Source of the DNA: a virus
Length of the DNA stretch: 22,040 nucleotides
UHGV virus genome: UHGV-0332375
Reading direction: 5' to 3' (one strand)
Shown here piece after piece: positions 47-22,040 of this stretch. Position 1 is the first letter of the stretch, and each line of letters begins with the position of its first letter. Both the position numbers and the translations under genes were made by a program. Under the pieces are notes generated by a model. It was not told where the DNA came from. It did no database searches and worked only from the letters and a program-made list of their open reading frames with translations.

Positions 47-340
47 TTAACTCTCGTTCAGCACACTAAACATCCCGTCACGCATCCCCTTAACTGACTG
101 TTTAACCTGATAAAGTTCCCTGCGCAGTTCCTGTACTTCGTTGTTATCCGCAAGCAGGATCAGGCAGCCTTCCGAGATCTTCACGGTAACGCCCGTGCCG
201 ATCTCAAATCCCGCTTCTCTCAGCCATTTGGCGCTGATTTTGATCACTGGTGTATCGCTGCGGTTGGGCAGATAACCCACGGTACAGCGACGCTGTGTTT
301 TGGAAATGGCGACTTCTGGCGTAATATCGCGTTCAGCCAT
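47..340 (-). CDS. SymE-family (type I toxin-like, AbrB/SpoVT-fold) protein
   Basis: 97-aa ORF; segment PVIKISAKWLREAGFEIGTGVTVKISEGCLILLA closely resembles the core of E. coli SymE (…[33 protein letters not shown]…) as recalled from memory; SD-like GAGG upstream of the ATG; followed by a terminator. Confidence 0.7.
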   Translation of the reverse strand: MAERDITPEVAISKTQRRCTVGYLPNRSDTPVIKISAKWLREAGFEIGTGVTVKISEGCLILLADNNEVQELRRELYQVKQSVKGMRDGMFSVLNES

Positions 341-421: not shown

Positions 422-814
422 TTACTGCGTTTTTCCTATCACATTATCTAAAATCTCAGAAACCAGCTTCTGCTTCGTTCGCGGTAACTGGCTGATGATC
501 TCGATCTGCTGTTCCAGCCGTGACGCCGGGCCGCGCTTGCTGCTTCTGCGTGGTGCTGGCAATCCGAGCAGTTCATCCAGCGACAGGTTCAGGATCTGTG
601 CCAGTTGTGGTAACAGCGCTGCCGAAACCTTGAGCTTCCCGCCTTCGTAATGCGCCATCGTCTGCTGTGCAATCCCTAACTGTTCTGCCAGTTGCGTCTG
701 TGTCAGTTGCTGTTCCTTACGTGCCTGTGCGATCCGTGCGCCAAGCTGCTTAAAAAACTGTTCGTCTTTGGTGTTCATGGCCTGCTGTAGCTGTCCTGTC
801 GTTAACACTGCCAT
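422..814 (-). CDS. XRE-family helix-turn-helix transcriptional regulator
   Basis: HTH signature LTQTQLAEQLGIAQQTMAHYEGGK. The ORF track gives 422-850 from a TTG codon; I prefer the ATG at 814-812, which has a GGGAG Shine-Dalgarno 7 nt upstream (130 aa). Divergent from the primase gene. Confidence 0.7.
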   Translation of the reverse strand: MAVLTTGQLQQAMNTKDEQFFKQLGARIAQARKEQQLTQTQLAEQLGIAQQTMAHYEGGKLKVSAALLPQLAQILNLSLDELLGLPAPRRSSKRGPASRLEQQIEIISQLPRTKQKLVSEILDNVIGKTQ

Positions 815-839
815 GATGTTACTCCCTGTTTTAAATAAC

Positions 840-928
840 TTGGTTGACAATACCCTAATATAGAGTACTCTGCAACAGAGTTATTTTTACCCTAAGTCTA
901 TTGACAGGTTTTTACAGGAGTTCCCGTT
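840..928. promoter_or_regulatory. Divergent promoter/operator region between the XRE regulator and the primase
   Basis: Two TTGACA hexamers (844-849, 901-906), two TACCCTAA direct repeats (851-858, 889-896), a perfect 10-bp palindrome AGAGTACTCT (863-872) overlapping inverted repeat ACTCTG…CAGAGT; AGGAG SD before the primase ATG at 929. Confidence 0.4.
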
Positions 929-3803: not shown

Positions 3804-3903
3804 AGATGAAAAAACACTGTTCCCGACAGCCAGGAAAACATCACATCGTAACAGTAATACGCCGGAAAGCCGCCCGACACCCCATGACACGGCTCCGACA
3901 GCT

Positions 3904-4126: not shown

Positions 4127-5266
4127 ATGATTTTAAATTTTGGTGCGAAAAATTTCTTCAGCTTTAAGGAAGGATTTGATATTTCATTTGAGCTTGGTAA
4201 TACTTGCCCAAAAGAAATTTCAAATGGGAAAGGCGTAACGAATATCCTTTGTATCAAAGGGGCTAATGGTTCAGGTAAAACGAATATACTAAAGGCACTA
4301 AGTTTTTTAACTAGTTTTATCTCTAATTCTTTTGATCTTAAACCAAATGCATATTTGCAGTTTGATCCATATTTTAATAGTAAATCTGAATCTGATTTCT
4401 ATATAACATTTGTATTAGATAATGTTATTTACAGATATGAAGCGTCAATGACTGACGTTGAGGTTAAACGAGAAGCTCTTTATAGAAAAAGTAAACGAGA
4501 AACTAAAGTTATTGAACGTATCAACGATGCAGTTGTGTTCACAATTAAAGAGTTTGATGAATTAAAAAGTATTAAAATGCGAAAAAATGTATCCCTTTTT
4601 AGCATGGCAATGCAATATGATGTTGATTGTGTTAGAGCAATTCATGAAAGTTTTACTAGGGTTATATCAAACGTCAGATATTCAGGTTTATTGACAGAAG
4701 TGCACGAATTAGAATATTTAAACGAATTTTATCATAATAACCCAGATGTATTCGATTTTTGTAAAAAAATTATAATGAAATTCGACCCCTCTATTCATGA
4801 TATTTATATAGCTAAAAATATTAATGATGACGGGAAAGTTACTTACAGGCCTTGGTTTGAGTTTGAGTTTGATGGTGAAACTGATATTTTAAGTTTTAAC
4901 CTGCAATCAAGTGGAACAAAATCATTATATAAGCAGTTAGGAAGTTATAAAGCTGTCCTGGCATTAGGTGGAACGCTTGTACTTGATGAGTTTGACATAA
5001 ATCTTCATCCTCATATACTTCCACATTTATTAGGTATTTTTATTGATGAGGAGCAAAACCCATATAATGCTCAGTTAATATTTACAACTCATAATACTGA
5101 GATTCTGGATTTTTTAGGAAAACATCGAACATATTTAGTCAACAAAAATAAGACTGAAAGTTATTGTTATCGACTTGATGAAATCCCTAGCGATATTTTA
5201 AGGAATGATCGCCCCATAACACCAGCCTATAATCAAGGTAAGATTGGTGGAGTTCCAAATTTATGA
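4127..5266 (+). CDS. ABC/AAA_21-family ATPase (abortive-infection / defence-type ATPase)
   Basis: 379 aa; Walker A GANGSGKTNILKA near residue 45, Walker B LVLDEFDINLHP, TTHN motif near the C-terminus; N-terminal MILNFGAKNFFSFKE typical of AAA_15/AAA_21 ATPases; strongly AT-rich codon usage; candidate promoter TTGACC-N17-TAGGAT about 4065-4093. Confidence 0.8.
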   Translation: MILNFGAKNFFSFKEGFDISFELGNTCPKEISNGKGVTNILCIKGANGSGKTNILKALSFLTSFISNSFDLKPNAYLQFDPYFNSKSESDFYITFVLDNVIYRYEASMTDVEVKREALYRKSKRETKVIERINDAVVFTIKEFDELKSIKMRKNVSLFSMAMQYDVDCVRAIHESFTRVISNVRYSGLLTEVHELEYLNEFYHNNPDVFDFCKKIIMKFDPSIHDIYIAKNINDDGKVTYRPWFEFEFDGETDILSFNLQSSGTKSLYKQLGSYKAVLALGGTLVLDEFDINLHPHILPHLLGIFIDEEQNPYNAQLIFTTHNTEILDFLGKHRTYLVNKNKTESYCYRLDEIPSDILRNDRPITPAYNQGKIGGVPNL

Positions 5267-5766
5267 GCAGAAAGTTTGGAAACTCCAATGCTCAAAAATT
5301 TCTAAAGGGATTTGAGGGGTTAGCAAGTCTTGACTCTGCAGAGTGTAATTTGGCTAGGAGATGTAAATTTAATTTCTCTTATTTTATAAGTAACCAAAAA
5401 GCTTGTGGTAAATTGTCGGATTGGGATAAAGATACAATATGTGTTTTTTTTGACAAGTTAATTGATTACTCTTCGAAATCGTTAAGTGATTTACAAATGA
5501 TCGGTTTGGGAAAGAATCGAAAAAAATTACTTTCTATTTATGATTCTTTCCCCAAAAATAGTTTGTTTGAACAACCTAAAAACATTCCTCATCAGGCTCG
5601 GTGGGGACGAATTAGATTAGATCAGAATAAAAGACTGATTGGGTTTGTTATTCCTGATGATTATCATGGACAAAGACATGAAGGCACTGGAATGTATTAT
5701 GATAAAAATACATTTTATGTTGTTTTTATTGATAATAACCATGGTTTTTATCTTCTTAATAAATAG
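5263..5766 (+). CDS. Hypothetical 167-aa protein, translationally coupled partner of the AAA_21 ATPase
   Basis: Start ATG overlaps the ATPase stop (ATGA at 5263-5266); same AT-rich composition; no motif I can assign to a known effector family (no HNH, TOPRIM, TM segments). Confidence 0.65.
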   Translation: MSRKFGNSNAQKFLKGFEGLASLDSAECNLARRCKFNFSYFISNQKACGKLSDWDKDTICVFFDKLIDYSSKSLSDLQMIGLGKNRKKLLSIYDSFPKNSLFEQPKNIPHQARWGRIRLDQNKRLIGFVIPDDYHGQRHEGTGMYYDKNTFYVVFIDNNHGFYLLNK

Positions 5767-6428: not shown

Positions 6429-7427
6429 TCAAGGCGTCGTTGCTTGAGTTGGATTCAGTTCAGAAACATTTGCAGCTTCTGCTTGCTGGACTATAGCTGT
6501 ACGGCGTTTCCGCTTTTTCTTCGGTTTTGGGCTAGTCATCTCTTTAATCCCCAGCATTTCCATGACTTCTGGCTGAGGTGGATAGCAAATACCTATGTCA
6601 GCAGGAGGTGTTGAGTGTCGATGTTTTTCAACTAACGATTTTTCATTATTCCAACGTTTGCAGAGGAAAATAATTCCTTCGAAGTAACGTTCATCTCTTT
6701 TCTGTGCCTCGAGAAGAATGAAAAATGCTCTTCTTTCTAGCCCTTCTAAAAATCCACAAAAGCATTCTCTGAGAAGTTTCTCGTCAAGATCATTGGCCTT
6801 AATTCCTTGAGCTAAAAACTCAAAGAAATTAAGAAGGTACACCAACCCGTTAATCCCTTTCACAACTTCATCTGGGACTTTTGAGTTTTTGAATTTTGGA
6901 TGGTCCGGGTCATCTCTCCAAACACATAGCTCTTTTGGAACATGGCGATTACCTCTCCATAAGTGCGTGAAATTACGCAAATGCGTTTGGTATTCAGTAC
7001 ATGTCCTAGTGCTAAGAACAACATTTAAAGTATGTTTTCTTCGATCACTTGCAGCGGAGGTGATGAATTGGATCCACCACCCCATACCAGCGATTGAACC
7101 GGCAACAATGATTGAAAGAGCTGTTTGGTAGGCATCATTATAGCGAAGTACGTAATATGCCAGCAGGAAAAGTACCCAAACCACACCTCCGAAAAGAGGT
7201 AGTAGTGGGTTTGTATCTGGAAATTTGTTACTGATTTTGTAGACGCTATATAGTGTTGTAAATGTTGCAAATGTAATCATTAACCCAGCATCGAACACTG
7301 CGTAAAACCAAGATGCAGTCTGTACTGCGTTTAAATTAAGTAAAATTCTCGTAATTATGAGACTGATCAAGATGCCAACCAGGACACCAAGCAGTGTTTT
7401 AGTTTTACTTTTTATCCATCGGTACAT
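6429..7427 (-). CDS. Hypothetical multi-pass membrane protein with C-terminal soluble domain and basic tail
   Basis: 332 aa; about four hydrophobic segments in the first ~120 residues (LLGVLVGILISLIITRILL, LMITFATFTTLYSVY, LFGGVVWVLFLLAYYVL, IIVAGSIAGMGWWIQFI); C-terminal KPKKKRKRR tract; AT-rich; lies just outside the prophage int-proximal end. Confidence 0.65.
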   Translation of the reverse strand: MYRWIKSKTKTLLGVLVGILISLIITRILLNLNAVQTASWFYAVFDAGLMITFATFTTLYSVYKISNKFPDTNPLLPLFGGVVWVLFLLAYYVLRYNDAYQTALSIIVAGSIAGMGWWIQFITSAASDRRKHTLNVVLSTRTCTEYQTHLRNFTHLWRGNRHVPKELCVWRDDPDHPKFKNSKVPDEVVKGINGLVYLLNFFEFLAQGIKANDLDEKLLRECFCGFLEGLERRAFFILLEAQKRDERYFEGIIFLCKRWNNEKSLVEKHRHSTPPADIGICYPPQPEVMEMLGIKEMTSPKPKKKRKRRTAIVQQAEAANVSELNPTQATTP

Positions 7428-7808: not shown

Positions 7809-8993
7809 TTATCCTGTACGGATTTCTCCATGCGGTACCACTACCCAGTTTGTATGATTTTTAGTGTATATTTTAGTCGATTTTGCATCGCTATGTGCCA
7901 TTCTTCCTTGTGGATCAATACCTTGTTTATCAAATAAGTGAGCAGCCAAAGCCCTTATCTCATGAAATGTAGGCCTTTCTTCCATTGCTAAGTGATTGCA
8001 CAGTCCGAGTTTGTCACGTACAGCAGAGAATGAGCGGCTTATGTAGTCCGGGGCCACTTGAGTAGGGTGCGAAACCTCTTTGCTACGTTTTACATTCCGC
8101 TTTGGAATTCTGTGGACAACGTAAGGACTGGCTACATTATCCCGACTGTTATCAATGATGCGTTTTAGTTCATCACCGATAGGGATTGCAACATGTGACG
8201 CCTCCTTTTTCTGTACCTTTTGCCGATGAATATATAGCATTCCGTATATTCCATTTTGTTGTTGCTCGAACCAGATACATCCACATATGCCGTCTTTAGG
8301 TTCGCGAATTGAGTAACGGATCCGCGATACTTCTAACCGTGCATGTGTCGTTTGTAAGGCTAAGTCCATTGCAGTTCTTAACCATGGTGCCGCGGCGCGG
8401 CGTATAGCCATGAAATGCTCGAATGATAGGCGTTGTCTTTTCTTCTCATCAGTCCTACGTTTTTTTTTCCTCGTTGCGGGGTTATCAAGCATTAGTGATT
8501 CGTCGACCGCATATGAGAACAACTTTTTAAGGAAGCCAACTTTTCTGTTCTGCACATTTGCGGATGAATTGTCATGATATTTGTTGATATAGGCGTTAAC
8601 GTGTTCAAGTTCGATATCGCATGCCGGAATATTTAAGAAAAAATCTTTTACGCGTAGAGCGTCATTTTTCCAGTCATCTAAGGTGCTCTGGGAAGGACGT
8701 TCGTCTTCGACAATTCGGGCCATTATGTGATCAACATGTTCAGCAAATGGTTTTGCTTCTCCGGTAACCCCGCCAGATTCTCTAATAAGATTATCCACTG
8801 ATGGGTATAATTCTGGTCGCATCCTCAGGTTGTACTCTCTGGCGATTGCAACGGCTATTGTCCGATCCTTACCTATATTTTTCTTTTTTCCGGTAATAAG
8901 TGTGAATTTATAAACACCTCGATCTTTATCAAAAACCAGATAATCAGGAAGATGTCTGTATTCTTTTTTACGTGGCCTTGCCGCCATGGTCAT
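7809..8993 (-). CDS. int: Tyrosine recombinase (phage integrase, lambda Int family)
   Basis: 394 aa; C-terminal catalytic region with PTFHEIRALAAHLF … GRMAHSDAKSTKIYTKNH; N-terminal basic arm-binding-like region; overlaps the xis stop. Confidence 0.9.
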   Translation of the reverse strand: MTMAARPRKKEYRHLPDYLVFDKDRGVYKFTLITGKKKNIGKDRTIAVAIAREYNLRMRPELYPSVDNLIRESGGVTGEAKPFAEHVDHIMARIVEDERPSQSTLDDWKNDALRVKDFFLNIPACDIELEHVNAYINKYHDNSSANVQNRKVGFLKKLFSYAVDESLMLDNPATRKKKRRTDEKKRQRLSFEHFMAIRRAAAPWLRTAMDLALQTTHARLEVSRIRYSIREPKDGICGCIWFEQQQNGIYGMLYIHRQKVQKKEASHVAIPIGDELKRIIDNSRDNVASPYVVHRIPKRNVKRSKEVSHPTQVAPDYISRSFSAVRDKLGLCNHLAMEERPTFHEIRALAAHLFDKQGIDPQGRMAHSDAKSTKIYTKNHTNWVVVPHGEIRTG

Positions 8994-12444: not shown

Positions 12445-13137
12445 TTAATTGTGTCGCTTAAGGGTTTGTGACTGGCTGATTAAGACCTTTCCAAAGACCA
12501 TAAACCGGTGTTCATTTTCGCTGGTAATTCCCCATTCACGGTAAATCTGGTTATCAGAAATCACCAGTAGTTTGTCAGGTATCATTTGCAGTCGTTTGAC
12601 ATAAATTTTATCATCAAAACCAAATACATAGATACCATCTCCATCAAACTGATTGATACTGACATCAACGAAGATGAGATCTCCTGGCTCAATGGTTGGA
12701 CACATACTGTCCCCACGAACGTTGATAACTTTAATGTGATTGGCTGGCCGTCCGCCAAACATCGATACAGCATTATCAGTTCTGTATTCAATGGCATGAA
12801 TCACATCAATGACATCACCGCCCTGGATAAGGCCATTTCCCGCACTGGCACTGACATCCAGCATTTCAATACGGAATACATCCTTCACCTGCGCAACATC
12901 CTCACTAATACTGTTTTTACATACAGTATTACTTTTGACGTCTGAGGTAAAGAGATCAGCAATATCAACACCTAAGCTCCTGGCAATATTACTCAGGGCT
13001 TGTTCAGTGAATTGTTTCTGCTTACCTGTTTCCAGGCGTGAGATATTCGCCGCATCCACTCCTATTGCTTCAGCGAGATCGGCGATTTTCATGTTCTTCG
13101 CCTGGCGAAGTTGTCTGACTCGGTTTCCTATGTTCAT
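12445..13137 (-). CDS. cI: Phage CI-type repressor (N-terminal HTH, C-terminal S24 LexA-like peptidase)
   Basis: 230 aa; HTH IADLAEAIGVDAANISRLETGKQ; autocleavage domain with VRGDSMCPTIEPGDLIFVD; divergent from a cro-like gene. Confidence 0.9.
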   Translation of the reverse strand: MNIGNRVRQLRQAKNMKIADLAEAIGVDAANISRLETGKQKQFTEQALSNIARSLGVDIADLFTSDVKSNTVCKNSISEDVAQVKDVFRIEMLDVSASAGNGLIQGGDVIDVIHAIEYRTDNAVSMFGGRPANHIKVINVRGDSMCPTIEPGDLIFVDVSINQFDGDGIYVFGFDDKIYVKRLQMIPDKLLVISDNQIYREWGITSENEHRFMVFGKVLISQSQTLKRHN

Positions 13138-13234
13138 GCGTTTATTACATTTCTTTATTGCGCGTTAAGCAAATCAACTTGCGCAAAATATTTGCGTGAA
13201 ATAATATGCTCATCACGCAATATGTGGAGGTCAT
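13138..13234. promoter_or_regulatory. Right operator/promoter region (OR, pRM/pR-like) between cI and cro
   Basis: TTGCGCGTTAAGCAA (13158-13172) matches the OL-type site; palindrome TTGCGCAA (13179-13186); inverted repeat ATATTTGCGTG / CACGCAATAT (13188-13229); candidate pR -35 TTGCGC and -10 ATAATA; GGAGG SD before cro. Confidence 0.55.
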
Positions 13235-13495
13235 ATGCAATCACCATTACGGAATGTGCGTAAGGCGCACGGATTTACTTTGCAGCATGTTGCTGCTGGC
13301 GTTCAGGTCAATCCAGCGACGCTGAGTCGTATTGAAAGACTGGAACAAATTCCATCTATCGATCTTGCAGAACGTCTGGCCAATTTTTTTAAGGGTGAAA
13401 TCAGCGAAATGCAGATTCTTTATCCGGCACGTTTTCAATCTAGCCAAAACCAGAATGGGTTTAAACCACAGGAACAGGAGGTAAGCCGTGGGTAA
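13235..13495 (+). CDS. cro: Cro-like HTH regulator
   Basis: 86 aa, divergent from cI; HTH LQHVAAGVQVNPATLSRIERLEQ. Confidence 0.7.
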   Translation: MQSPLRNVRKAHGFTLQHVAAGVQVNPATLSRIERLEQIPSIDLAERLANFFKGEISEMQILYPARFQSSQNQNGFKPQEQEVSRG

Positions 13496-14045
13496 TCATC
13501 ACTGGAAAGTGGAAAAACAGCCTGAGTGGTACGTGAAAGCTGTCAGAAAAACTATCGCGGCGTTGCCGGGGGGTTACGCTGAAGCTGCTGAGTGGCTGGA
13601 TGTAACAGAGAACGCATTATTTAACCGCCTTCGTGCCGATGGCGATCAGATTTTCCCGCTGGGATGGGCAATGATTTTACAACGTGCTGGTGGCACTCAC
13701 TTCATTGCCGACGCTGTGGCGCAGTCTGCAAATGGCGTCTTTGTGTCTCTTCCTGACGTCGAGGATGTGGACAATGCCGATATTAACCAGCGTTTACTGG
13801 AAGTCATTGAACAGATCGGCAGTTATTCAAAACAGATTCGTTCGGCAATCGAAGACGGTGTAGTGGAACCGCATGAGAAGACAGCAATTAACGACGAGCT
13901 GTACCTCTCAATTTCGAAGCTGCAGGAGCATGCAGCACTTGTCTACAAAATTTTTTGCGTTTCAGAAAGTAATGACGCCCGCGAGTGTGCAGCTCCGGGC
14001 GTCGTGGCGTCGATTGCTTCTGGTTGTGGAGAAACTAACGCATGA
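13488..14045 (+). CDS. cII: Phage regulatory protein CII (CP76 / phage 186 CII family)
   Basis: 185 aa; …[38 protein letters not shown]… resembles phage 186 CII as recalled (…LRNKLNPEQPHQFTPPELWLLTDLTEDSTLVDGFLAQ…); overlaps the cro stop. Confidence 0.6.
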
Positions 14046-14380
14046 ACAGTTTAACAACACACTACCGTCGCTCGCAACTGATTGCGCTTCCTGTACCGGG
14101 TGGAAAAGCGAAGGTGGAGTATTGCTATGCAGTAAATGTACCAGGTGACAGGGAAATTGTAACCCACAGCTTTGCTGAGTGGGCTGTGGGGGATTTCAAC
14201 CGGCAGAAGGAGACAGTCCTTTGCGACAAGTTAACCGCTGGTTCAAAGATCACTACGGAGTGCCCGTCAGAGTCATTCGTTGGGAGCCGGAAACACAACG
14301 GGTTATCTACCTCCGTGAAGGCTATGAGCATGAGTGCTTCAGCCCGCTCGAACAGTTTCGTCGTAAATTCAGGGAAATAG
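14042..14380 (+). CDS. Hypothetical ORF (low confidence; 3' half conflicts with the overlapping small ORF)
   Basis: 112-aa ORF whose ATG overlaps the cII stop (ATGA), but residues after ~14220 overlap a better-supported ORF in another frame. Confidence 0.25.
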
Positions 14381-14400
14381 AGGTCGGTCATGAGCACTAA
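14221..14400 (+). CDS. Small hypothetical protein, translationally coupled to the replication gene
   Basis: Track ORF 14179-14400 (GTG start); I favour the TTG at 14221 preceded 8 nt upstream by AAGGAG (59 aa); stop TAA overlaps the ATG of the replication initiator. Confidence 0.45.
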
Positions 14401-15331
14401 ATTAACCGGCTATGTATGGGATGGTTGCGCAGCGTCAGGCATGAAATTATCCAGCGTGGCAATTATGGCCCGCCTGGCTGATTTCAGTAATGACGAAGGT
14501 GTGTGCTGGCCATCAATTGAAACTATTGCCCGTCAGATTGGCGCGGGGATGAGTACCGTCAGAACGGCTATCGCACGGCTGGAAGCAGAAGGCTGGTTAA
14601 CGCGTAAGGCGCGTCGCCAGGGTAACCGCAATGCGTCGAATGTTTATCAGCTTAACGTTGCGAAGCTTCAGGCAGCGGCATTTTCTCAACTGTCAGATTC
14701 TGACCCGTCAAAATCTGACGCATCAAAATCTGACACGTCAAAATTTGATGCGTCGAAATCTGGCAAAAAAGCGGGTTTTCACCCGTCAGAATCTGGCGGG
14801 GATCCGTCAGTAAAATCAAAACATGATCCGTCAGATAAAAAACCTTCTCGTCCGGACGCTTCGCAACCGGACACGCAGACGGCTGAACAGGATTTTTTAA
14901 CTCGCCATCCTGATGCGGTTGTATTCAGCCCTAAAAAGCGCCAGTGGGGAACGCAGGATGATTTGACCTGCGCACAGTGGCTCTGGAAAAAAATCATTGC
15001 CCTGTACGAGCAGGCCGCCGAATGTGACGGCGAGGTGGTTCGTCCCAAAGAACCGAACTGGACAGCATGGGCAAACGAAATTCGCCTGATGTGTGTGCAG
15101 GATGGTCGTACTCACAAACAAATCTGCGAGATGTACAGCCGCGTCAGCCGCGATCCGTTCTGGTGCCGTAACGTGCTCAGCCCGTCGAAGTTGCGGGAAA
15201 AATGGGATGAGCTTTCCCTGCGCTTATCGCCGTCCGTCAGCACGCACACAGAAAAACGTGAAGACCCGTACTTCAAAGCCAGTTACGACAACGTGGACTA
15301 CAGCCAGATCCCGGCAGGATTCAGGGGGTGA
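14390..15331 (+). CDS. Replication initiator protein (lambda O-like replisome organiser) with iterons inside the coding region
   Basis: 313 aa; N-terminal winged-helix-like segment (IETIARQIGAGMSTVRTAIARLEAEGWL); central low-complexity SDSDPSKSDASKSDTSKFDASKSGKK encoded by tandem DNA iterons, as in lambda O. Confidence 0.8.
   Translation: MSTKLTGYVWDGCAASGMKLSSVAIMARLADFSNDEGVCWPSIETIARQIGAGMSTVRTAIARLEAEGWLTRKARRQGNRNASNVYQLNVAKLQAAAFSQLSDSDPSKSDASKSDTSKFDASKSGKKAGFHPSESGGDPSVKSKHDPSDKKPSRPDASQPDTQTAEQDFLTRHPDAVVFSPKKRQWGTQDDLTCAQWLWKKIIALYEQAAECDGEVVRPKEPNWTAWANEIRLMCVQDGRTHKQICEMYSRVSRDPFWCRNVLSPSKLREKWDELSLRLSPSVSTHTEKREDPYFKASYDNVDYSQIPAGFRG
14690..14835. repeat. Phage replication origin: tandem ~15-bp iterons (CGTCAAAATCTGAC family) plus A-rich tract
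   Basis: Copies CCGTCAAAATCTGAC (14705-14719), GCATCAAAATCTGAC (14720-14734), ACGTCAAAATTTGAT (14735-14749), GCGTCGAAATCTGGC (14750-14764), degenerate copies CTGTCAGATTCTGAC upstream and CCGTCAGAATCTGGC, CCGTCAGTAAAATCA, CCGTCAGATAAAAAA downstream; adjacent GGCAAAAAAGCGGG. Confidence 0.7.
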
Positions 15332-15333
15332 TC

Positions 15334-15822
15334 ATGAGTCTTTTGAATGACGTTCAGAAATTCATTGAAGCCCATCCGGGCTGTACTTCCGGAGACATTG
15401 CGGATGCTTTTGCAGGTTACTCACGGCAGCGCGTTCTGCAGTCAGCAAGCAAGTTACGTCAGAGTGGGCGTGTGGCTCACCGTTGTGAAGGAGATACACG
15501 CAGACATTTCCCGCGCCTGACTGAGAGAGCGCAGGAGCCGGAACCACAACCTGTTCGTGAAACCAGACCTGTGCGCAATTTCTATGTCGGCACTAACGAT
15601 CCCCGGGTGATTTTGTGCCTGACCCGCCAGGCTGAAGAGCTGGAGTCCAGGGGCTTATACCGTCGTGCTGCAACGGTGTGGATGGTGGCATTCCGTGAAA
15701 GTCACTCCCAGCCAGAACGAAACAACTTTCTGGCGCGTCGAGAGCGGTGCTTACGGAAAAGCAGCAAGCGCGCTGTATCGGGTGATGAATGGTATCTGTC
15801 AGGGAATTACGTGGGGGCTTAA
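15334..15822 (+). CDS. PerC-family transcriptional regulator-like protein
   Basis: AEELESRGLYRRAATVWMVAF resembles the PerC/Pch motif as I recall it; start set to the ATG at 15334 just after the upstream stop (track 15328, GTG). Confidence 0.5.
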   Translation: MSLLNDVQKFIEAHPGCTSGDIADAFAGYSRQRVLQSASKLRQSGRVAHRCEGDTRRHFPRLTERAQEPEPQPVRETRPVRNFYVGTNDPRVILCLTRQAEELESRGLYRRAATVWMVAFRESHSQPERNNFLARRERCLRKSSKRAVSGDEWYLSGNYVGA

Positions 15823-16148
15823 TGACGACGTTAACTCAGTGTCAGCAGCAGGTGCTGGATATGCTGATTTCTTACCAGCAAGAACGTGGCTTTCCGCCAA
15901 CCAATCAGGAGGTGGCAACCATGCTGGGATACCGTTCAGTGAATGCAGCGGTGGAGCATCTTCGCGCACTGGAGAAAAAAGGCGTCATCACGATAAAGCG
16001 TGGTGTGGCCCGGGGGATCACGCTTCATACCGCGGTGAAGGACGACGACAGCGAGGCGGTCGGGATTATCCGCTCACTGCTTGCCGGTGAGGAAAACGCA
16101 AGGCTGCGTGCAACTCACTGGTTACATGAGAGAGGCCTGAAAGTATGA
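15822..16148 (+). CDS. LexA N-terminal DNA-binding-domain protein (no peptidase domain)
   Basis: TLTQCQQQVLDMLISYQQERGFPPTNQEVATMLGYRSVNAAVEHLRALEKKGVITIKRGVARGITL parallels LexA residues 1-70 ([55 protein letters not shown]…); ATG at 15822 overlaps the upstream stop (TAATG); 108 aa. Confidence 0.7.
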   Translation: MTTLTQCQQQVLDMLISYQQERGFPPTNQEVATMLGYRSVNAAVEHLRALEKKGVITIKRGVARGITLHTAVKDDDSEAVGIIRSLLAGEENARLRATHWLHERGLKV

Positions 16149-16535
16149 AGCTGATCCTGCCTTTCCCGCCCAGCGTGAACACGTACTGGCGACACCCCAA
16201 CAAAGGGGCGTTTGCTGGTAAGAGCCTGATAAGCGCGGCGGGGCGAAAATTCCAGAGCGCGGCGTGCGCAGCAATAGTTGAGCAGTTACGTCGTCTGCCG
16301 AAACCAACGTCGGCACCTGCTTCAGTGGAGATCGTGTTGTTTCCTTCCGGATAACCGGAGCCGCGATCTGGACAACTATAACAAGGCGCTGTTTGACGCC
16401 CTGACCCACGCGGGTGTGTGGGAAGACGACAGTCAGGTGAAAAGAATGCTGGTGGAGTGGGGACCGGTTATCCCGGAAGGGAAGGTCGAGATCACTATCA
16501 GTAAGTACGAGAAAACGGCGGGTGCAGCCGCCTGA
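16145..16535 (+). pseudogene. rusA: Holliday-junction resolvase RusA, interrupted by a frameshift
   Basis: ORF 16145-16354 aligns with the RusA N-terminal half; the C-terminal half (DNRSRDLDNYNKALFDALTHAGVWEDD… vs RusA [27 protein letters not shown]…) continues in another frame to 16535; the frames meet at CCTTCC (~16340-16350), consistent with a 1-bp indel. Confidence 0.7.
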
Positions 16536-16554
16536 GCAAAAGGAGAAACGAAGT

Positions 16555-17364
16555 ATGAATAATCTGATGGTCATTGATGGTATTGAAGTTCGTCGTGATG
16601 CTTATGGGCGTTACAGCCTGAACGATCTGCATCGCGCAGCAGTAGCATCTGGTGCAAATGCCAGAACCAAGGAGCCAGGAAAGTTTCTTTCCAGCCAACA
16701 AACTGTTGAACTTGTTCATGAATTGACCAACACCCAGAATTTGGGTGTTGACCCGGTGAGTGTGATTCATGGGGGAAATGAACGGGGAACTTATGTCTGC
16801 AAGGAACTGGTGTATGCCTATGCAATGTGGATCAGCCCGTCATTCCATCTGAAGGTGATCCGTACTTTCGATATGGTAACCAGCGCACCGGAAAAATTAT
16901 CCGGGCAGGCTGCTGACAAGATGCAGGCTGGAGTGATTCTGCTGGACTTTATGCGCAGGGAGTTAAACCTGTCTAACTCTTCAGTGCTTGGGGCCTGTCA
17001 GAAACTCCAGGAGGCTGTTGGCTTACCGAATCTGGCACCGCGCTATGCCATTGATGCTCCTGCTGACGCGCCTGATGGCTCAAGCCGCCCCACGCTGTCA
17101 CTGAGTGCATTGCTGAAGCAGTATGGTATCCGCCTGACAGCTAATCAGGCATATCACCAGATGGTGAAGCTGGGGATCGTCGAGCAGCGCGAACGATACA
17201 GCCGTACCGCGATTAACAACATCAAAAAATTCTGGTCACTGACAGCGAAAGGCTGCATGTTCGGCAAGAACATCACCAGTCCCGCAAATCCGCGCGAGAC
17301 GCAGCCGCATTTCTTCGAATCCCGATTCCCTGAGCTGTTAAAGCTGCTCGATACCGTACATTGA
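16555..17364 (+). CDS. KilA-N domain protein (antirepressor-like)
   Basis: N-terminus MNNLMVIDGIEVRRDAYGRYSLNDLHRAA typical of KilA-N; AAGGAGAA SD upstream of the ATG at 16555 (track ORF starts at 16522). Confidence 0.65.
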   Translation: MNNLMVIDGIEVRRDAYGRYSLNDLHRAAVASGANARTKEPGKFLSSQQTVELVHELTNTQNLGVDPVSVIHGGNERGTYVCKELVYAYAMWISPSFHLKVIRTFDMVTSAPEKLSGQAADKMQAGVILLDFMRRELNLSNSSVLGACQKLQEAVGLPNLAPRYAIDAPADAPDGSSRPTLSLSALLKQYGIRLTANQAYHQMVKLGIVEQRERYSRTAINNIKKFWSLTAKGCMFGKNITSPANPRETQPHFFESRFPELLKLLDTVH

Positions 17365-18374: not shown

Positions 18375-19127
18375 ATGAACCTTGAAGCCTTACCGAAATA
18401 TTACTCCCCGAAATCTCCAAAATTGAGCGATGACGCACCGGCGACAGGCTCTGGTGGTTTAACAATTACGGATGTAATGGCTGCGCAGGGGATGGTGCAG
18501 TCTAAAGCACCGCTTGGGTTTGCCTTATTCCTGGCAAAAGTTGGTGTTCAGGATCCTCAGTTTGCGATTGAAGGTCTGCTCAATTACGCGATGGCACTGG
18601 ATAACCCGACATTGAACAAATTGAGTGAAGAAACCCGGTTACAGATCATCCCTTACCTTGTGAATTTTGCCTTTGCTGATTATTCCAGGTCTGCGGCAAG
18701 TAAGGCTCGCTGTGAGCATTGTGCTGGTACTGGATTTCATAATGTATTGCGCGAAGTGGTGAAACACTCCAGAAGCGGGGAATCTGTTATCAAGGAAGAG
18801 TGGGTGAAGGAACTGTGTCAGCATTGTCATGGTAAGGGAGAAGTCAGCACAGCGTGCAGAGGGTGTAAGGGTAAAGGTATTGTCCTGGATGAAAAAAGAA
18901 CCCGGCTTCATGGCACGCCTGTTTATAAGGTTTGTGGGCGTTGCAATGGAAACCGGTTTAGCCGTTTACCAACCACACTGGCGCGGCTTCATGTCCAGAA
19001 GCTGGTACCAGACCTGACGGATTATCAGTGGTACAAAGGATATGCAGATGTCATTGATAAACTGGTTACAAAGTGCTGGCAGGAGGAATCTTACGCTGAA
19101 GCACAATTGAGAAAGGTGACAAGATAA
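18375..19127 (+). CDS. Q: Late-gene antiterminator Q
   Basis: 250 aa; multiple CxxC/HxxH zinc motifs (CEHCAGTG, CQHCHGKG, CRGCKGKG, CGRCNG); position after the rusA/KilA/DUF968 region and before the lysis cassette; GGAGAA SD. Confidence 0.7.
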   Translation: MNLEALPKYYSPKSPKLSDDAPATGSGGLTITDVMAAQGMVQSKAPLGFALFLAKVGVQDPQFAIEGLLNYAMALDNPTLNKLSEETRLQIIPYLVNFAFADYSRSAASKARCEHCAGTGFHNVLREVVKHSRSGESVIKEEWVKELCQHCHGKGEVSTACRGCKGKGIVLDEKRTRLHGTPVYKVCGRCNGNRFSRLPTTLARLHVQKLVPDLTDYQWYKGYADVIDKLVTKCWQEESYAEAQLRKVTR

Positions 19128-19329: not shown

Positions 19330-20115
19330 ATGTATGTTTTTGAGTTAATCAAGCCAGGCAGTAATCTTAAGTTTGAAAACAGAGAGTTAGAATGGACGTT
19401 TAATAACTTATTATCCCATTTAGAAACTGCATTTTATGATGCTAATGTAGCATTAAATTTATTCGAACAGGAAAGAACTAAGAATAACAGTAAATTCGAT
19501 AATATTTCTCAGACATGGCAAGCTGATGTACAGAAACGACAAGCACTGGAAATGCTGGTTCGTAAAGAGTTTGGTTATCAACCTTATGAATATTCAGAAC
19601 AGGTTTTTTCAGAGGTCGAGCTACGTCTAAAAAGAGAAAAATGGAATAACGGTGAATATCCGTTGGCTCATCAACACAGATTGATCTTCTTACATGCAAA
19701 ATCATTTCTCTACGCTTTGGATGCTATTGATAAATTTTTAAAGGTAATTTCAAAAGAAAATGGCGCGCCAGAGAACATTAAAAAATTGCATGAACAGCTT
19801 TCTAAAGACTTTCCGGATTTAAGAAAGGTAAGGAATTCAGCTCAACACATGGAAGACAGAGTTCGTGGGCTTGGTGCAGAGAAAGAACCAAAGCCAATAA
19901 AACTCAAACCTGTAAATAATATTCATGTTGTTGCACCTCAGGGGGCATTGATGTTAAATAACTTATTCGGAACTAAATTTGGGTGCACTATGGCTGATGG
20001 CTATTATGGTGAAGTAGATATTTCGACAGAGTCTTTGGCAAAGTTGCAAAATTTAATCCAAAAAGTTTTTAATTCCTTCAGTTGGGAAGGACCAAAGCAA
20101 CACCTTCCCCGATAA
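19330..20115 (+). CDS. Hypothetical AT-rich moron protein with R-x4-H (HEPN-like) motif
   Basis: 261-aa ORF with markedly lower GC than flanking phage genes; motif RNSAQH in DLRKVRNSAQHMEDR; occupies the Q-to-S position where lambdoid phages carry morons; followed by a strong terminator. Confidence 0.7.
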   Translation: MYVFELIKPGSNLKFENRELEWTFNNLLSHLETAFYDANVALNLFEQERTKNNSKFDNISQTWQADVQKRQALEMLVRKEFGYQPYEYSEQVFSEVELRLKREKWNNGEYPLAHQHRLIFLHAKSFLYALDAIDKFLKVISKENGAPENIKKLHEQLSKDFPDLRKVRNSAQHMEDRVRGLGAEKEPKPIKLKPVNNIHVVAPQGALMLNNLFGTKFGCTMADGYYGEVDISTESLAKLQNLIQKVFNSFSWEGPKQHLPR

Positions 20116-21500: not shown

Positions 21501-21794
21501 TTATTGTGAGCAATACACCCGCGCTTCCAGCGGAGTATAAATGCCTAAAGTAATAAAACCGAGCAATCCATTTACGAATGTTTGCTGGGTTTCTGTTTTA
21601 ACAACATTTTCTGCGCCGCCACAAATTTTGGCTGCATCAACAGTTTTCTTCTGTCCAATTCCCGAAACGAAGAAATGATGGGTGATGGTTTCCTTTGGTG
21701 TTACTGCTGTCGGTTTGTTTCCAACAGTAAACGTCTGTTGAGCACATCCTGTAATAAGCATAGCCAGAGCGGCAGAAAACAACATTTTTTTCAT
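21501..21794 (-). CDS. bor: Bor lipoprotein (serum-resistance, lysogenic conversion)
   Basis: 97 aa from MKKMLFSAALAMLITGCAQQTFTV…; essentially the lambda Bor sequence as recalled; lipobox ITGC (track ORF has a 16-codon upstream extension). Confidence 0.9.
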   Translation of the reverse strand: MKKMLFSAALAMLITGCAQQTFTVGNKPTAVTPKETITHHFFVSGIGQKKTVDAAKICGGAENVVKTETQQTFVNGLLGFITLGIYTPLEARVYCSQ

Positions 21795-22040
21795 CTTATT
21801 ATCCTGCATTGTTAAAAACGGCAGAATCCTATGTGACAACAATTAAACGATAGTTAAATGGATTGATGAAAATTAAAACTATATAGGTGTACGATCAGAC
21901 TATTGGAGGTAGTCAGGATTTGAATGTCAGTCTGTTGTCGGCATTCTGGCAATGCAATTTGGATAAAGCGGGGATTAAAAAGATAGAGGCGAGCCGGTCA
22001 GGTAGAAATGAATCAGGCTCAAAGTGAAGCGGAAAAGGTC

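What the first reader, a model, noticed from the sequence alone, without database searches (positions are those of the whole stretch)
14390..15822. Iteron-type origin inside the O-like gene but no recognisable helicase-loader (P or DnaC-like) gene
At least five tandem ~15-bp iterons plus an A-rich tract lie within the replication initiator ORF, a lambda-like ori. The next gene is a PerC-like regulator rather than a P, DnaC-like or DnaB-like gene, and none is seen between here and rusA. Either the initiator's C-terminal domain recruits host helicase directly, the loader is elsewhere, or the replication module is incomplete (defective prophage).
Basis: partly seen in the sequence, partly recalled or inferred. 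Interest (0 to 1): 0.4.

Follow-up and report, generated by a model that had tools for sequence, protein, structure and literature searches.

The report
Loader-less lambda-type origin with DnaT-like tail
This prophage's replication module has an initiator with its origin repeats inside its own gene and no helicase-loader gene, and the initiator ends in the same short peptide as the host restart protein DnaT, which suggests it recruits the host's own DnaB-DnaC helicase complex directly.

Summary
Six copies of a 13-bp palindromic iteron (GTCA-N5-TGAC; five at a 15-bp period) sit in the linker-coding part of a 313-aa initiator gene. The next gene is PerC-like, and no lambda-P, DnaC or DnaB-like gene is present.

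The module is not defective. It is about 97% identical to that of plaque-forming phages SfII and SfIV, whose complete genomes also lack a loader. A 2025 paper already lists this "O-only" module type as not understood.

New here:
- The C-terminal domain is a true homologue of the lambda O C-terminal (P-binding) domain.
- The last residues (SQIPAGFRG) match the C-terminus of E. coli DnaT (SQIPPGFRG).

Across 145 related loci the tail predicts the neighbouring gene:
- Tryptophan-acidic, lambda-like tails: lambda-P homologue next door in 34/34.
- DnaT-like tails: never lambda P (0/88); either a phage dnaC 3 nt downstream (63) or nothing (25, this window's class).

Host dnaT-dnaC and Rac ydaU-ydaV show the same tail-then-dnaC layout.

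Most likely mechanism (inferred, not shown): the tail docks host DnaB-DnaC onto the initiator-origin complex, so host DnaC acts as the loader.

The parts
14221..14400 (+). DUF4222 small gene overlapping the initiator start. This, not the 112-aa ORF 14042-14380, is the likely real gene here.
   Evidence: Pfam DUF4222 E 3.2e-19 on frame 14179-14397. PGAP annotates it in the same prophage of two strains. A DUF4222 gene overlaps the initiator start in several relatives.
14390..15331 (+). Replication initiator gene, 313 aa. Layout: winged-helix N-domain, iteron-encoded disordered linker, lambda-O-type C-terminal domain, DnaT-like tail.
   Evidence: PHROG 391 'replication initiation O-like' E 5.5e-135. 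AF2 model shows two folded domains and a disordered linker. 97-99% identical to the SfII and SfIV replication proteins.
14390..14683 (+). N-terminal winged-helix domain (aa 1-98), the presumed iteron-binding domain.
   Evidence: Pfam HTH_36 aa 23-70, E 4.3e-11; weak DnaD_N and RP-C hits. Foldseek hits to MarR/ArsR-type winged helices. It is not the Pfam Phage_rep_O domain of lambda O.
14692..14797 (.). Iteron array: six 13-bp palindromic sites GTCA-N5-TGAC at 14692, 14707, 14722, 14737, 14752 and 14785.
   Evidence: 9 strand-matches vs 0.96 expected; 0/100 shuffles. The same 15-bp array, 4-8 copies, sits at the same gene offset in Klebsiella, Pantoea and Rahnella relatives.
14801..14842 (.). 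Two GATCCGTCAG half-site repeats and the A-rich stretch (14813-14842, 73% A+T). Candidate unwinding element on the right of the iterons, as in lambda.
   Evidence: Composition alone is not significant; the role is inferred from position by analogy with ori-lambda.
14906..15220 (+). Lambda-O-type C-terminal domain core (aa 173-277).
   Evidence: BLASTP against lambda O aa 176-270, E 6e-26. The family HMM hits lambda O aa 172-294 at 158 bits. AF2 helical domain with pLDDT about 90. 2685 cluster representatives at E<=1e-3.
15214..15331 (+). Exchangeable 3' cassette: the last ~38 codons, including the tail.
   Evidence: DNA similarity (77%) to the Pantoea relative L086, which has a lambda-type tail plus a P gene, stops at gene nt 824 = window 15213.
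15302..15328 (+). DnaT-like C-terminal tail SQIPAGFRG (aa 305-313).
   Evidence: 8/9 identical to the E. coli DnaT C-terminus SQIPPGFRG. G310 is invariant and P308, F311, R312 are >=90% conserved in 46 homologues. Low-confidence, unstructured in AF2.
15328..15822 (+). PerC-family regulator (yfdN-like). Winged-helix N-part plus PerC C-part. Not a loader.
   Evidence: Pfam PerC E 2.2e-9; PHROG 1324 'transcriptional activator'. Present downstream in only 6 of 23 loader-less relatives.
15822..16148 (+). LexA-DNA-binding-domain protein, 108 aa.
   Evidence: Pfam LexA_DNA_bind E 2.6e-19.
16145..16535 (+). rusA pseudogene, with one extra T at 16345.
   Evidence: Alignment to the intact SfII rusA. PGAP marks it 'frameshifted' in the same prophage of two strains.

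Best explanation
This is a complete, working lambdoid replication module of the 'initiator-only' type.

Proposed steps:
1. The 313-aa initiator binds, through its N-terminal winged helix and probably as dimers, to six palindromic iterons inside its own gene.
2. This assembles a nucleoprotein complex that destabilises the adjacent A-rich DNA.
3. Lambda O hands the job to a phage P protein that has captured host DnaB. This initiator instead carries, on a lambda-O-type C-terminal domain, the C-terminal peptide of the host restart protein DnaT (IPxGFRG).
4. That tail most likely docks the host DnaB6-DnaC6 complex onto the origin complex. DnaC is the favoured contact and DnaB is possible. Host DnaC would then be the loader and no phage loader gene is needed.

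Shown: the iterons; the domain homologies; the tail identity; the absence of a loader in viable relatives; the tail-versus-neighbour rule.

Inferred: iteron binding by the N-domain; unwinding at the A-rich tract; the physical tail-DnaC/DnaB contact.
For: Completeness. The region is ~97% identical to SfII, SfIV, mEp460 and other isolated phages. The full SfII and SfIV genomes have no loader or helicase by annotation or by iterated lambda-P, DnaC and gp12 profiles. SfIV forms plaques and lysogenises. PMC12315714 reports 34 of 314 lambdoid phages with only an O homologue.

Lambda-O C-domain. BLASTP E 6e-26; HMM 158 bits.

DnaT tail.
- 8/9 identity to the DnaT C-terminus.
- Relatives end in VNHISEPDTEIPPGFRG, against DnaT VNTVSEPDSQIPPGFRG.
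- IP.GFRG is conserved in 107 DnaT sequences.

Tail predicts neighbour. Pooled over 145 loci in 75 clusters at 90% identity:
- W-acidic (lambda-like) tails: lambda-P homologue overlapping the stop codon in 34/34 loci (29 clusters).
- GFRG tails: lambda P in 0/88; a dnaC homologue at +3 nt in 63 (7 clusters); nothing in 25 (17 clusters).

Natural swaps. P0042, P0066, P0104 and P0120 share the N-domain and core (59-75% identity to the window protein). They have W-acidic tails, and each is followed by Pfam Phage_lambda_P. GFRG-tailed Klebsiella and Pantoea relatives have no loader. The swap breakpoint is at aa 275.

Link to DnaC.
- The phage dnaC next to GFRG tails is 48% identical to E. coli DnaC over its full length.
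- The tail-stop-dnaC junction is 81% identical over 48 nt to the host dnaT-dnaC junction.
- Host dnaT is directly upstream of dnaC.
- Rac YdaU ends in VNTVSLPDSAIPPGFRG and is followed 6 nt later by YdaV, which is 50% identical to DnaC.

No hidden loader. No ORF family is shared downstream by most loader-less loci; the best is DUF968 in 10 of 23.
Against: - No physical interaction was tested. The literature read here says no DnaT-DnaC interaction has been documented (PMC5778457), and a 2026 cryo-EM study suggests the DnaT N-terminal domain might be the DnaB/DnaC recruiter (PMC13377028).
- The similarity to DnaT is confined to a short tail. Pairwise E is 0.009; hhalign aligns 19 columns at E 0.014 with low probability.
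- The tail of this window (DYSQIPAGFRG) is less DnaT-like than those of the dnaC-linked clade.
- 'No loader' rests on known families plus a clustering test. An unrecognised, non-adjacent loader cannot be fully excluded.
- The A-rich tract is not statistically distinctive.
Confidence: 0.55

Rival explanations
1. The DnaT-like tail does not contact DnaB-DnaC. Instead it plugs the initiator into the PriA-PriB restart primosome, for example by binding PriA or PriB as DnaT does. Helicase loading at the phage origin would then go through PriA, PriB and host DnaT, as at a primosome assembly site.
For: DnaT's C-terminal domain docks on PriA and filaments on ssDNA in the preprimosome (PMC13377028). The function of the extreme DnaT tail is not described in the papers read. 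Hosts that carry GFRG-tailed initiators (Enterobacterales) have PriA, PriB and DnaT as well as DnaC.
Against: - This reading does not explain why the tail travels as one cassette with a dnaC gene in 63 phage loci, in Rac (ydaU-ydaV) and in the host operon.
Confidence: 0.15
2. The tail is irrelevant to helicase loading. The lambda-O-type C-terminal domain core itself, or the N-domain as in DnaA, binds host DnaB or DnaB-DnaC. Alternatively, replication relies mainly on transcription- or recombination-dependent loading.
Against: - The same core (59-75% identical over the whole protein) is used with a P protein when the tail is W-acidic. The core therefore does not by itself make P dispensable.
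- The strict tail/neighbour partition (0/88 against 34/34) is hard to explain if the tail were neutral.
- The tail is conserved: P308, G310, F311 and R312 at >=90%.
Confidence: 0.15
3. The replication module, or the whole prophage, is defective because the loader gene was lost.
For: The neighbouring rusA is a frameshifted pseudogene, so some decay exists. E. coli K-12 carries degraded relatives of this module, yfdN/yfdO in CPS-53 (own knowledge).
Against: - The initiator ORF is intact and 97-99% identical to those of plaque-forming phages with the same gene order.
- 17 independent clusters of loader-less GFRG-tailed loci exist.
- The strain 23AR1183 copy of this prophage continues into lysis, terminase and portal genes.
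Confidence: 0.05
4. An unrecognised loader is encoded nearby: the PerC-like 164-aa protein, the DUF4222 protein, or the 940-aa primase at 929-3751.
For: The PerC-like and DUF4222 genes overlap the initiator gene on either side. The 940-aa protein has a CHC2 zinc finger, Toprim and a weak P-loop hit.
Against: - PerC-like is present in only 6 of 23 loader-less relatives. It is absent in Klebsiella, Pantoea and K. aerogenes relatives.
- DUF4222 also occurs upstream of initiators that do have a P gene.
- The primase lies outside the prophage, whose left end is at about 3873. In other strains yejO is there. It is absent from SfII and SfIV.
Confidence: 0.05

Closest known systems
Bacteriophage lambda O/P replication module (ori-lambda)
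   Same: The origin iterons lie inside the initiator gene, in the linker-coding part, with an A/T-richer stretch on their right. The initiator has two domains. The C-terminal domain is homologous to lambda O aa 172-270 (about 50% identity in the core). The module sits after cro/cII in the early-right operon.
   Different: - The N-terminal DNA-binding domain is Pfam HTH_36, not Phage_rep_O.
- There are six 13-bp sites at a 15-bp period, against four ~18-bp iterons in lambda.
- There is no P gene.
- The C-terminal tail is IPxGFRG, not lambda's DLTNTDWIYGVDL.
'O-only' lambdoid replication modules (phage LLS and 34 of 314 lambdoid phages; Genome Res 2025, PMC12315714)
   Same: Same situation: only an O homologue, with no helicase or loader. 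A close relative of this window's module (mEp460_4F5) is named in that paper for its repressor. The authors state that replication of this type is not understood and has not been studied.
   Different: The passages retrieved from that paper give no mechanism, and a term search of it finds no mention of DnaT. The DnaT-type tail and the tail/neighbour rule are derived here.
E. coli DnaT (primosomal protein i) and the dnaT-dnaC operon
   Same: The extreme C-terminus is shared: IPxGFRG, 8/9 here and up to 13/17 in relatives. In 63 related phage loci the tail is followed by dnaC, exactly as dnaT is.
   Different: No DnaT N-terminal domain, acidic PriB-binding linker or detectable DnaT three-helix DNA-binding domain. 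This protein is a sequence-specific origin binder, not a restart factor.
Rac prophage YdaU-YdaV (E. coli K-12)
   Same: An initiator-like protein ending in VNTVSLPDSAIPPGFRG, followed 6 nt later by a DnaC paralogue. It belongs to the same tail class.
   Different: YdaU has a DUF1376 N-domain and a DnaT-like C-domain (40% identity to DnaT aa 111-179), not the lambda-O core. It keeps its own dnaC-type loader.
P22 gene 18 / gene 12 (initiator plus DnaB-type helicase)
   Same: A lambdoid early-right replication module with the origin inside the initiator gene.
   Different: The P22 gp18 C-terminus is unrelated to the family profile, and P22 brings its own helicase. Nothing comparable is present here.

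Membership tests
Lambda-O-type replication initiator | C-terminal domain homologous to the lambda O C-terminal (P-interacting) domain | tested here: met
   BLASTP E 6e-26 against lambda O. The family HMM hits lambda O aa 172-294 at 158 bits.
Lambda-O-type replication initiator | N-terminal Phage_rep_O (PF04492) origin-binding domain | tested here: not met
   Pfam finds HTH_36 and no PF04492. Other family members do carry PF04492, DUF1376 or DnaD_N in front of the same C-domain.
Lambda-O-type replication initiator | Iterons inside its own coding sequence | tested here: met
   Six sites at 14692-14797. Conserved in relatives.
Lambda-O-type replication initiator | Cognate lambda-P-type loader gene immediately downstream | tested here: not met
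   No PF06992 hit and no hit with the iterated lambda-P profile in the window, SfII or SfIV.
Lambda-O-type replication initiator | Binding of the protein to the iterons and origin unwinding | not testable with these tools
   Needs EMSA or footprinting and a KMnO4 or P1 unwinding assay.
DnaT (primosomal protein i) | DnaT DNA-binding three-helix domain (PF17948) | tested here: not met
DnaT (primosomal protein i) | Conserved C-terminal IPxGFRG tail | tested here: met
   SQIPAGFRG against SQIPPGFRG. The tail is conserved in 107 DnaT sequences and in 46 initiator homologues.
DnaT (primosomal protein i) | N-terminal oligomerisation domain and acidic PriB-binding linker | tested here: not met
   BLASTP shows no similarity outside the tail. 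The N-terminal half is a winged helix.
Helicase loader or helicase encoded in the module (lambda P, DnaC/IstB AAA+, DnaB-like) | Any ORF in the module or phage matching these families | tested here: not met
   Pfam, NCBIfam and PHROGs on the module ORFs. Iterated profiles against all ORFs of the window, SfII, SfIV and 40 kb of strain 23AR1183 gave no hits.
Initiator-only ('O-only') lambdoid replication module (PMC12315714) | O homologue present and no helicase or loader anywhere in the phage genome | tested here: met
   Met for the complete genomes of SfII and SfIV, which carry the same module. For this prophage itself, only the window plus the matching 40 kb of a sister strain could be checked.
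PerC family regulator (the next gene) | PerC domain (PF06069) above the gathering score | tested here: met
   37.9 bits against a cut-off of 22.6, aa 100-153.

The most novel reading that the evidence does not exclude
The IPxGFRG peptide is a portable recruitment tag for the DnaC-type loader system. It is shared by host DnaT, Rac YdaU and a large family of phage initiators. More generally, the last ~15 residues of lambda-O-type initiators would form a partner code:
- tryptophan-acidic tail: lambda P;
- IPxGFRG: DnaC, phage-encoded or host;
- QDYRAGVxxDGSF: another DnaC-like loader.

If so, the window shows how loader-less lambdoid phages replicate. It also predicts that DnaT recruits DnaB-DnaC to restart forks through its extreme C-terminal tail, a step the restart literature read here still lists as unknown.
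Probability: 0.45. Interest if true: 0.75.

Novelty: new variant of a known kind. Interest (0 to 1): 0.6.

Why it matters
Two open questions become directly testable with a nine-residue peptide.

1. How do the roughly one in ten lambdoid phages that encode only an O protein load a helicase? This group includes serotype-converting Shigella phages and some Stx phages. PMC12315714 states this is "not yet understood".
2. How does DnaT bring DnaB-DnaC to an abandoned fork? Reviews and the 2026 preprimosome structure both say this is unknown, and no DnaT-DnaC contact has been documented.

The tail/neighbour rule also gives annotators a simple way to predict which loader a phage initiator uses. It shows that initiators evolve by swapping a small 3' cassette together with the loader gene.

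The gene arrangement itself is not new. It is on record in SfII, SfIV and the 2025 survey.

Tried and rejected
- **Family scans.** Pfam, NCBIfam and PHROGs scans of the 313-aa and 164-aa proteins for a loader domain found none.
- **PDB sequence search.** The initiator gave only MarR-type winged-helix hits.
- **Foldseek, full-length model.** Dominated by the winged helix and uninformative for the C-domain.
- **hhalign, C-domain family against DnaT family.** Only the tail aligns, so 'DnaT-like domain' is rejected in favour of 'DnaT-like tail'. The DnaT alignment was shallow (>=71% identity), which limits sensitivity.
- **Viral-contig scan with the diverse alignment A4.** It returned only 97-100% identical loci, useless for covariation.
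- **Genome scan with A4.** It failed for lack of a conserved stretch. It was repeated with a narrower alignment, A5.
- **P0117 look-up.** The contig was too short to show the neighbours.
- **The 940-aa CHC2-Toprim primase at 929-3751 as 'loader elsewhere'.** Rejected because it lies outside the prophage.
- **PerC-like and DUF4222 proteins as hidden loaders.** Rejected on lack of co-conservation.
- **Literature searches.** 'DnaT-like', 'PPGFRG' and 'initiator-solo' found nothing relevant in the held library. Weigel & Seitz 2006 (FEMS Microbiol Rev), which classifies phage replication modules, is not in the library. It could not be checked for prior mention of this tail.
Full report
**1. What is in the window**

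The stretch 12.4-19.1 kb is the early-right region of a lambdoid prophage. Gene order:

| Gene | Coordinates |
|---|---|
| cI-type repressor | 12445-13137, minus strand |
| cro | 13235-13495 |
| cII/YmfL | 13488-14045 |
| small DUF4222 gene | 14221-14400 |
| 313-aa initiator | 14390-15331 |
| PerC-family protein | 15328-15822 |
| LexA-DNA-binding-domain protein | 15822-16148 |
| rusA | 16145-16535 |
| KilA-N | to 17364 |
| DUF968 | to 18361 |
| Q | 18375-19127 |

PGAP annotation of the same prophage in two complete E. coli genomes agrees, and it marks rusA as frameshifted. The frameshift is one extra T at 16345 relative to the intact SfII gene.

**2.

- Tandem Repeats Finder reports a 15-bp unit x4.3 at 14699-14762.
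- Read in register, the repeat core is a 13-bp imperfect palindrome, GTCA-N5-TGAC. It occurs at 14692, 14707, 14722, 14737 and 14752, with a sixth copy at 14785.
- With two mismatches allowed, the motif occurs nowhere else in 22 kb. There are 9 strand-matches against 0.96 expected, and 0 of 100 shuffles reach 9.
- Two GATCCGTCAG half-site repeats follow. So does the most A+T-rich 30-mer of the gene (14813-14842, 73%). That composition is reached by 11% of all 30-mers in the window, so the tract counts only by its position.
- The iterons encode an SDxSK peptide repeat in a linker that AlphaFold models as disordered (pLDDT <50 for aa 102-160). Lambda's iterons likewise lie in the O linker.
- The same 15-bp array, in 4 to 8 copies, sits at the same gene offset in Klebsiella, Pantoea and Rahnella relatives. 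A Salmonella relative has a different repeat there. Some E. coli alleles differ only by loss of repeat units.

**3. No loader, and not because of decay**

- None of the ORFs from cro to Q matches lambda P, DnaC/IstB or DnaB families in Pfam, NCBIfam or PHROGs.
- The region 13200-16600 is ~97% identical to isolated phages: SfII, SfIV, vB_EcoS-569R4, Kati, mEp460, and Stx2a/Stx2c phages. There are 64 matching records, and 12 of them cover at least 80% of the query.
- The complete annotated genomes of SfII (41.5 kb) and SfIV (39.8 kb) contain no helicase, loader or primase.
- Iterated profiles started from lambda P, E. coli DnaC and P22 gp12 find nothing in either phage, in the window, or in 40 kb of a sister strain. 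The same profiles recover 39 P and 72 DnaC homologues in related loci.
- SfIV was UV-induced, plaque-purified, propagated and shown to lysogenise (PMC3851460). The arrangement is therefore functional.
- This is already in the literature. [quoted passage not shown] **4. A possible 'loader elsewhere' that is not one**

The window holds a 940-aa protein with a CHC2 zinc finger, Toprim and a weak P-loop match at 929-3751. Megablast against complete E. coli genomes shows that many strains carry the prophage at ~100% identity only from window position 3873 rightwards. In those strains the host gene yejO lies on the left. In the strain that matches the whole window, the primase belongs to a duplicated primase/XerC/RHS/ISEc1 region. 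It is a neighbour, not part of the prophage, and SfII and SfIV lack it.

**5. Anatomy of the initiator**

- **N-terminal domain (aa 1-98).** A winged helix: Pfam HTH_36 at E 4e-11, with weak DnaD_N and RP-C hits, and Foldseek matches to MarR/ArsR folds.
- **C-terminal region (aa ~165-313).** It has no Pfam family. A search of 1.8 billion cluster representatives finds 2685 relatives at E<=1e-3.
- **Variable N-domains.** Among 104 representatives the same C-terminal domain follows different N-domains: HTH_36 (18), Phage_rep_O (13), DUF1376 (13) and DnaD_N (6).
- **Lambda O homology.** A profile of this domain hits lambda O aa 172-294 at 158 bits. Direct BLASTP of the window protein against lambda O gives E 6e-26, with about half the core residues identical. 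The domain is therefore the lambda O C-terminal domain, classically the part that deals with P (established knowledge). P22 gp18 does not match.

**6. The tail**

- The last nine residues, SQIPAGFRG, match the C-terminus of E. coli DnaT, SQIPPGFRG, at 8 of 9 positions.
- Close relatives of the initiator end in VNHISEPDTEIPPGFRG, against DnaT VNTVSEPDSQIPPGFRG.
- The motif is conserved in the initiator family: G310 is invariant and P308, F311 and R312 are at >=90% in 46 sequences. It is also conserved in 107 DnaT sequences.
- Profile-profile comparison aligns only these last 19 residues. The helical cores are not detectably related, so this is a shared tail and not a shared domain. That explains why some pipelines label these proteins 'primosomal protein I'.

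**7. The tail predicts the neighbouring gene**

*Natural swaps.* Among full-length homologues with the same N-domain and core, a minority carry other tails. These are lambda-like ...DFDNTDWIYG......HWNSPEAWENTL and ...WNTPEGWRDVL.
- Four such proteins were looked up on their contigs: Pantoea P0042 and P0066, Rahnella P0104 and Salmonella P0120. Each is followed, overlapping its stop codon, by a Pfam Phage_lambda_P gene. A fifth, P0090, likewise.
- GFRG-tailed proteins from Klebsiella, Pantoea and K. aerogenes are followed by a methylase, a ParB-like gene or small ORFs. None is followed by a loader.

*Census.* I scanned one genome per species (71 loci) and viral contigs (69 loci). Tails and downstream ORFs were classified with iterated profiles. 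The pooled table covers 145 loci with room to see a neighbour, in 75 clusters at 90% identity:

| Tail class | Downstream gene | Loci | Clusters |
|---|---|---|---|
| W-acidic | lambda P | 34 | 29 |
| W-acidic | anything else | 0 | - |
| GFRG | lambda P | 0 | - |
| GFRG | dnaC homologue 3 nt after the stop | 63 | 7 |
| GFRG | nothing recognisable | 25 | 17 |
| QDYRAGVxxDGSF (Oxalobacteraceae) | DnaC-like gene | 6 | 5 |

Two Geobacteraceae members are followed by a DnaB-like gene.

*Breakpoint.* DNA similarity between the window gene and the P-linked Pantoea relative ends at codon 275. The last ~38 codons and the downstream gene are therefore exchanged as one cassette.

**8. The link to DnaC**

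- The gene after GFRG tails is a full-length DnaC homologue: 48% identity to E. coli DnaC, E 7e-92, and Pfam IstB_IS21.
- The tail-stop-start junction is 81% identical over 48 nt to the host dnaT-dnaC junction.
- In E. coli, dnaT sits directly upstream of dnaC.
- In the K-12 Rac prophage, YdaU (DUF1376) ends in VNTVSLPDSAIPPGFRG. It is followed 6 nt later by YdaV, which is 50% identical to DnaC. YdaU also resembles DnaT over aa 111-179.
- So three different protein bodies carry this tail, and each sits next to a dnaC gene. The exception is the loader-less phages, whose hosts supply DnaC.
- In 23 loader-less loci, no downstream ORF family is shared by a majority: DUF968 in 10, RusA in 7, PerC-like in 6. 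This argues against a hidden adjacent loader.

**9. Mechanism proposed**

- The initiator binds its iterons through the winged helix and opens the adjacent A-rich DNA (by analogy with lambda; inferred).
- Its tail recruits host DnaB-DnaC directly, so host DnaC is the loader (inferred from sections 6-8).
- I favour DnaC as the contact because the tail and dnaC are co-inherited. A contact with DnaB inside the complex would give the same outcome.
- The main rival is that the tail addresses PriA or PriB, since DnaT works in that complex. However, the PriA and PriB contacts seen by cryo-EM use DnaT's C-terminal domain and its acidic linker (PMC13377028), which this protein lacks. That model also leaves the dnaC linkage unexplained.
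- Against my reading: reviews note that no DnaT-DnaC interaction has been documented (PMC5778457). The cryo-EM authors speculate that the DnaT N-domain is the recruiter. Nothing physical was tested here.

**10. Novelty and verdict**

The sequence itself is a new member of a known phage lineage (SfII/SfIV/mEp460-like), and the O-only arrangement has been reported. Two things appear to be new, within the limits of the library searched. One is the identification of a DnaT-type tail on a lambda-O-type C-terminal domain. The other is the strict tail/loader rule. Together they turn two open questions into simple experiments. I rate this a new variant of a known kind, with interest 0.6 and confidence 0.55 in the specific mechanism. 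Confidence that the module is complete and of the initiator-only type is about 0.9.

Noticed in passing
window 929-3751 (+), with 47-340 (-) and 422-850 (-): A 940-aa protein with a CHC2 zinc finger, DnaG-type Toprim and a weak P-loop match. It also hits PADLOC 'RTasDnaG-like' DRT models. A SymE-type toxin and an HTH gene lie next to it. It sits in a duplicated primase/XerC/RHS/ISEc1 region outside the prophage.
   Followed up: partly
window 4127-5266 and 5263-5766 (+): An AbiLi-like AAA ATPase (PADLOC AbiLi E 1.6e-64; Pfam AAA_21) followed by an overlapping 167-aa ORF with no family. This is a candidate two-gene abortive-infection pair between the prophage end (~3873) and the integrase. A DUF4760 gene (6429-7427, minus strand) and a transposase remnant lie between them and int.
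   Followed up: partly
window 16145-16535: rusA is a pseudogene, caused by a single extra T at 16345 relative to SfII. The same frameshift is annotated in the same prophage of strains MJ-T and 23AR1183.
   Followed up: yes
window 14042-14400: The 112-aa ORF (14042-14380), annotated as hypothetical in SfII and SfIV, overlaps in another frame a DUF4222 gene (14221-14400; Pfam E 3e-19). PGAP calls the DUF4222 gene, and it recurs just upstream of the initiator in many relatives. The DUF4222 reading looks like the real gene.
   Followed up: partly
window 3873 (approx.): Left boundary of the prophage. Many E. coli genomes match at ~100% only from 3873 rightwards, with yejO/narP on the left. The integrase (7809-8993, minus strand) and everything left of ~9000 have no near match in the phage collection, unlike the early-right region. 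The prophage is therefore a mosaic with a different integration module from SfII/SfIV.
   Followed up: partly
L146, L148, L150, L152, L154, L157, L158 (Duganella / Janthinobacterium genomes): Lambda-O-type C-domains ending in ...QDYRAGVxxDGSF are always followed by a DnaC-like gene (31-40% identical to E. coli DnaC). This is a third tail class with its own partner.
   Followed up: partly
L241 1620-3230 (E. coli K-12 Rac prophage ydaU-ydaV): YdaU ends in VNTVSLPDSAIPPGFRG, almost the DnaT tail. It resembles DnaT aa 111-179 (40% identity) and is followed by the DnaC paralogue YdaV (50% identity to DnaC). It is a ready-made K-12 model for testing the tail-DnaC idea.
   Followed up: partly
L129, L130 (Acerihabitans, Sodalis); L143, L149, L151 and others: Some family members have yet other tails (e.g. 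...STWNKIWAECSQR...) and no recognisable P, DnaC or DnaB gene downstream. Their partner, if any, is unknown.
   Followed up: no
window 19330-20115 (+) and 21501-21842 (-): A 261-aa ORF between Q and the holin has no Pfam or PADLOC match (a moron position). An Iss/Bor-type lipoprotein gene lies after the Rz gene and is annotated iss in strain 23AR1183.
   Followed up: no
window 14699-14797; homologues P0007, P0016, P0029, P0063: Alleles of the initiator differ by whole 5-codon (15-bp) units in the linker. Iteron copy number therefore varies between otherwise near-identical prophages (about 1 to 8 units).
   Followed up: partly
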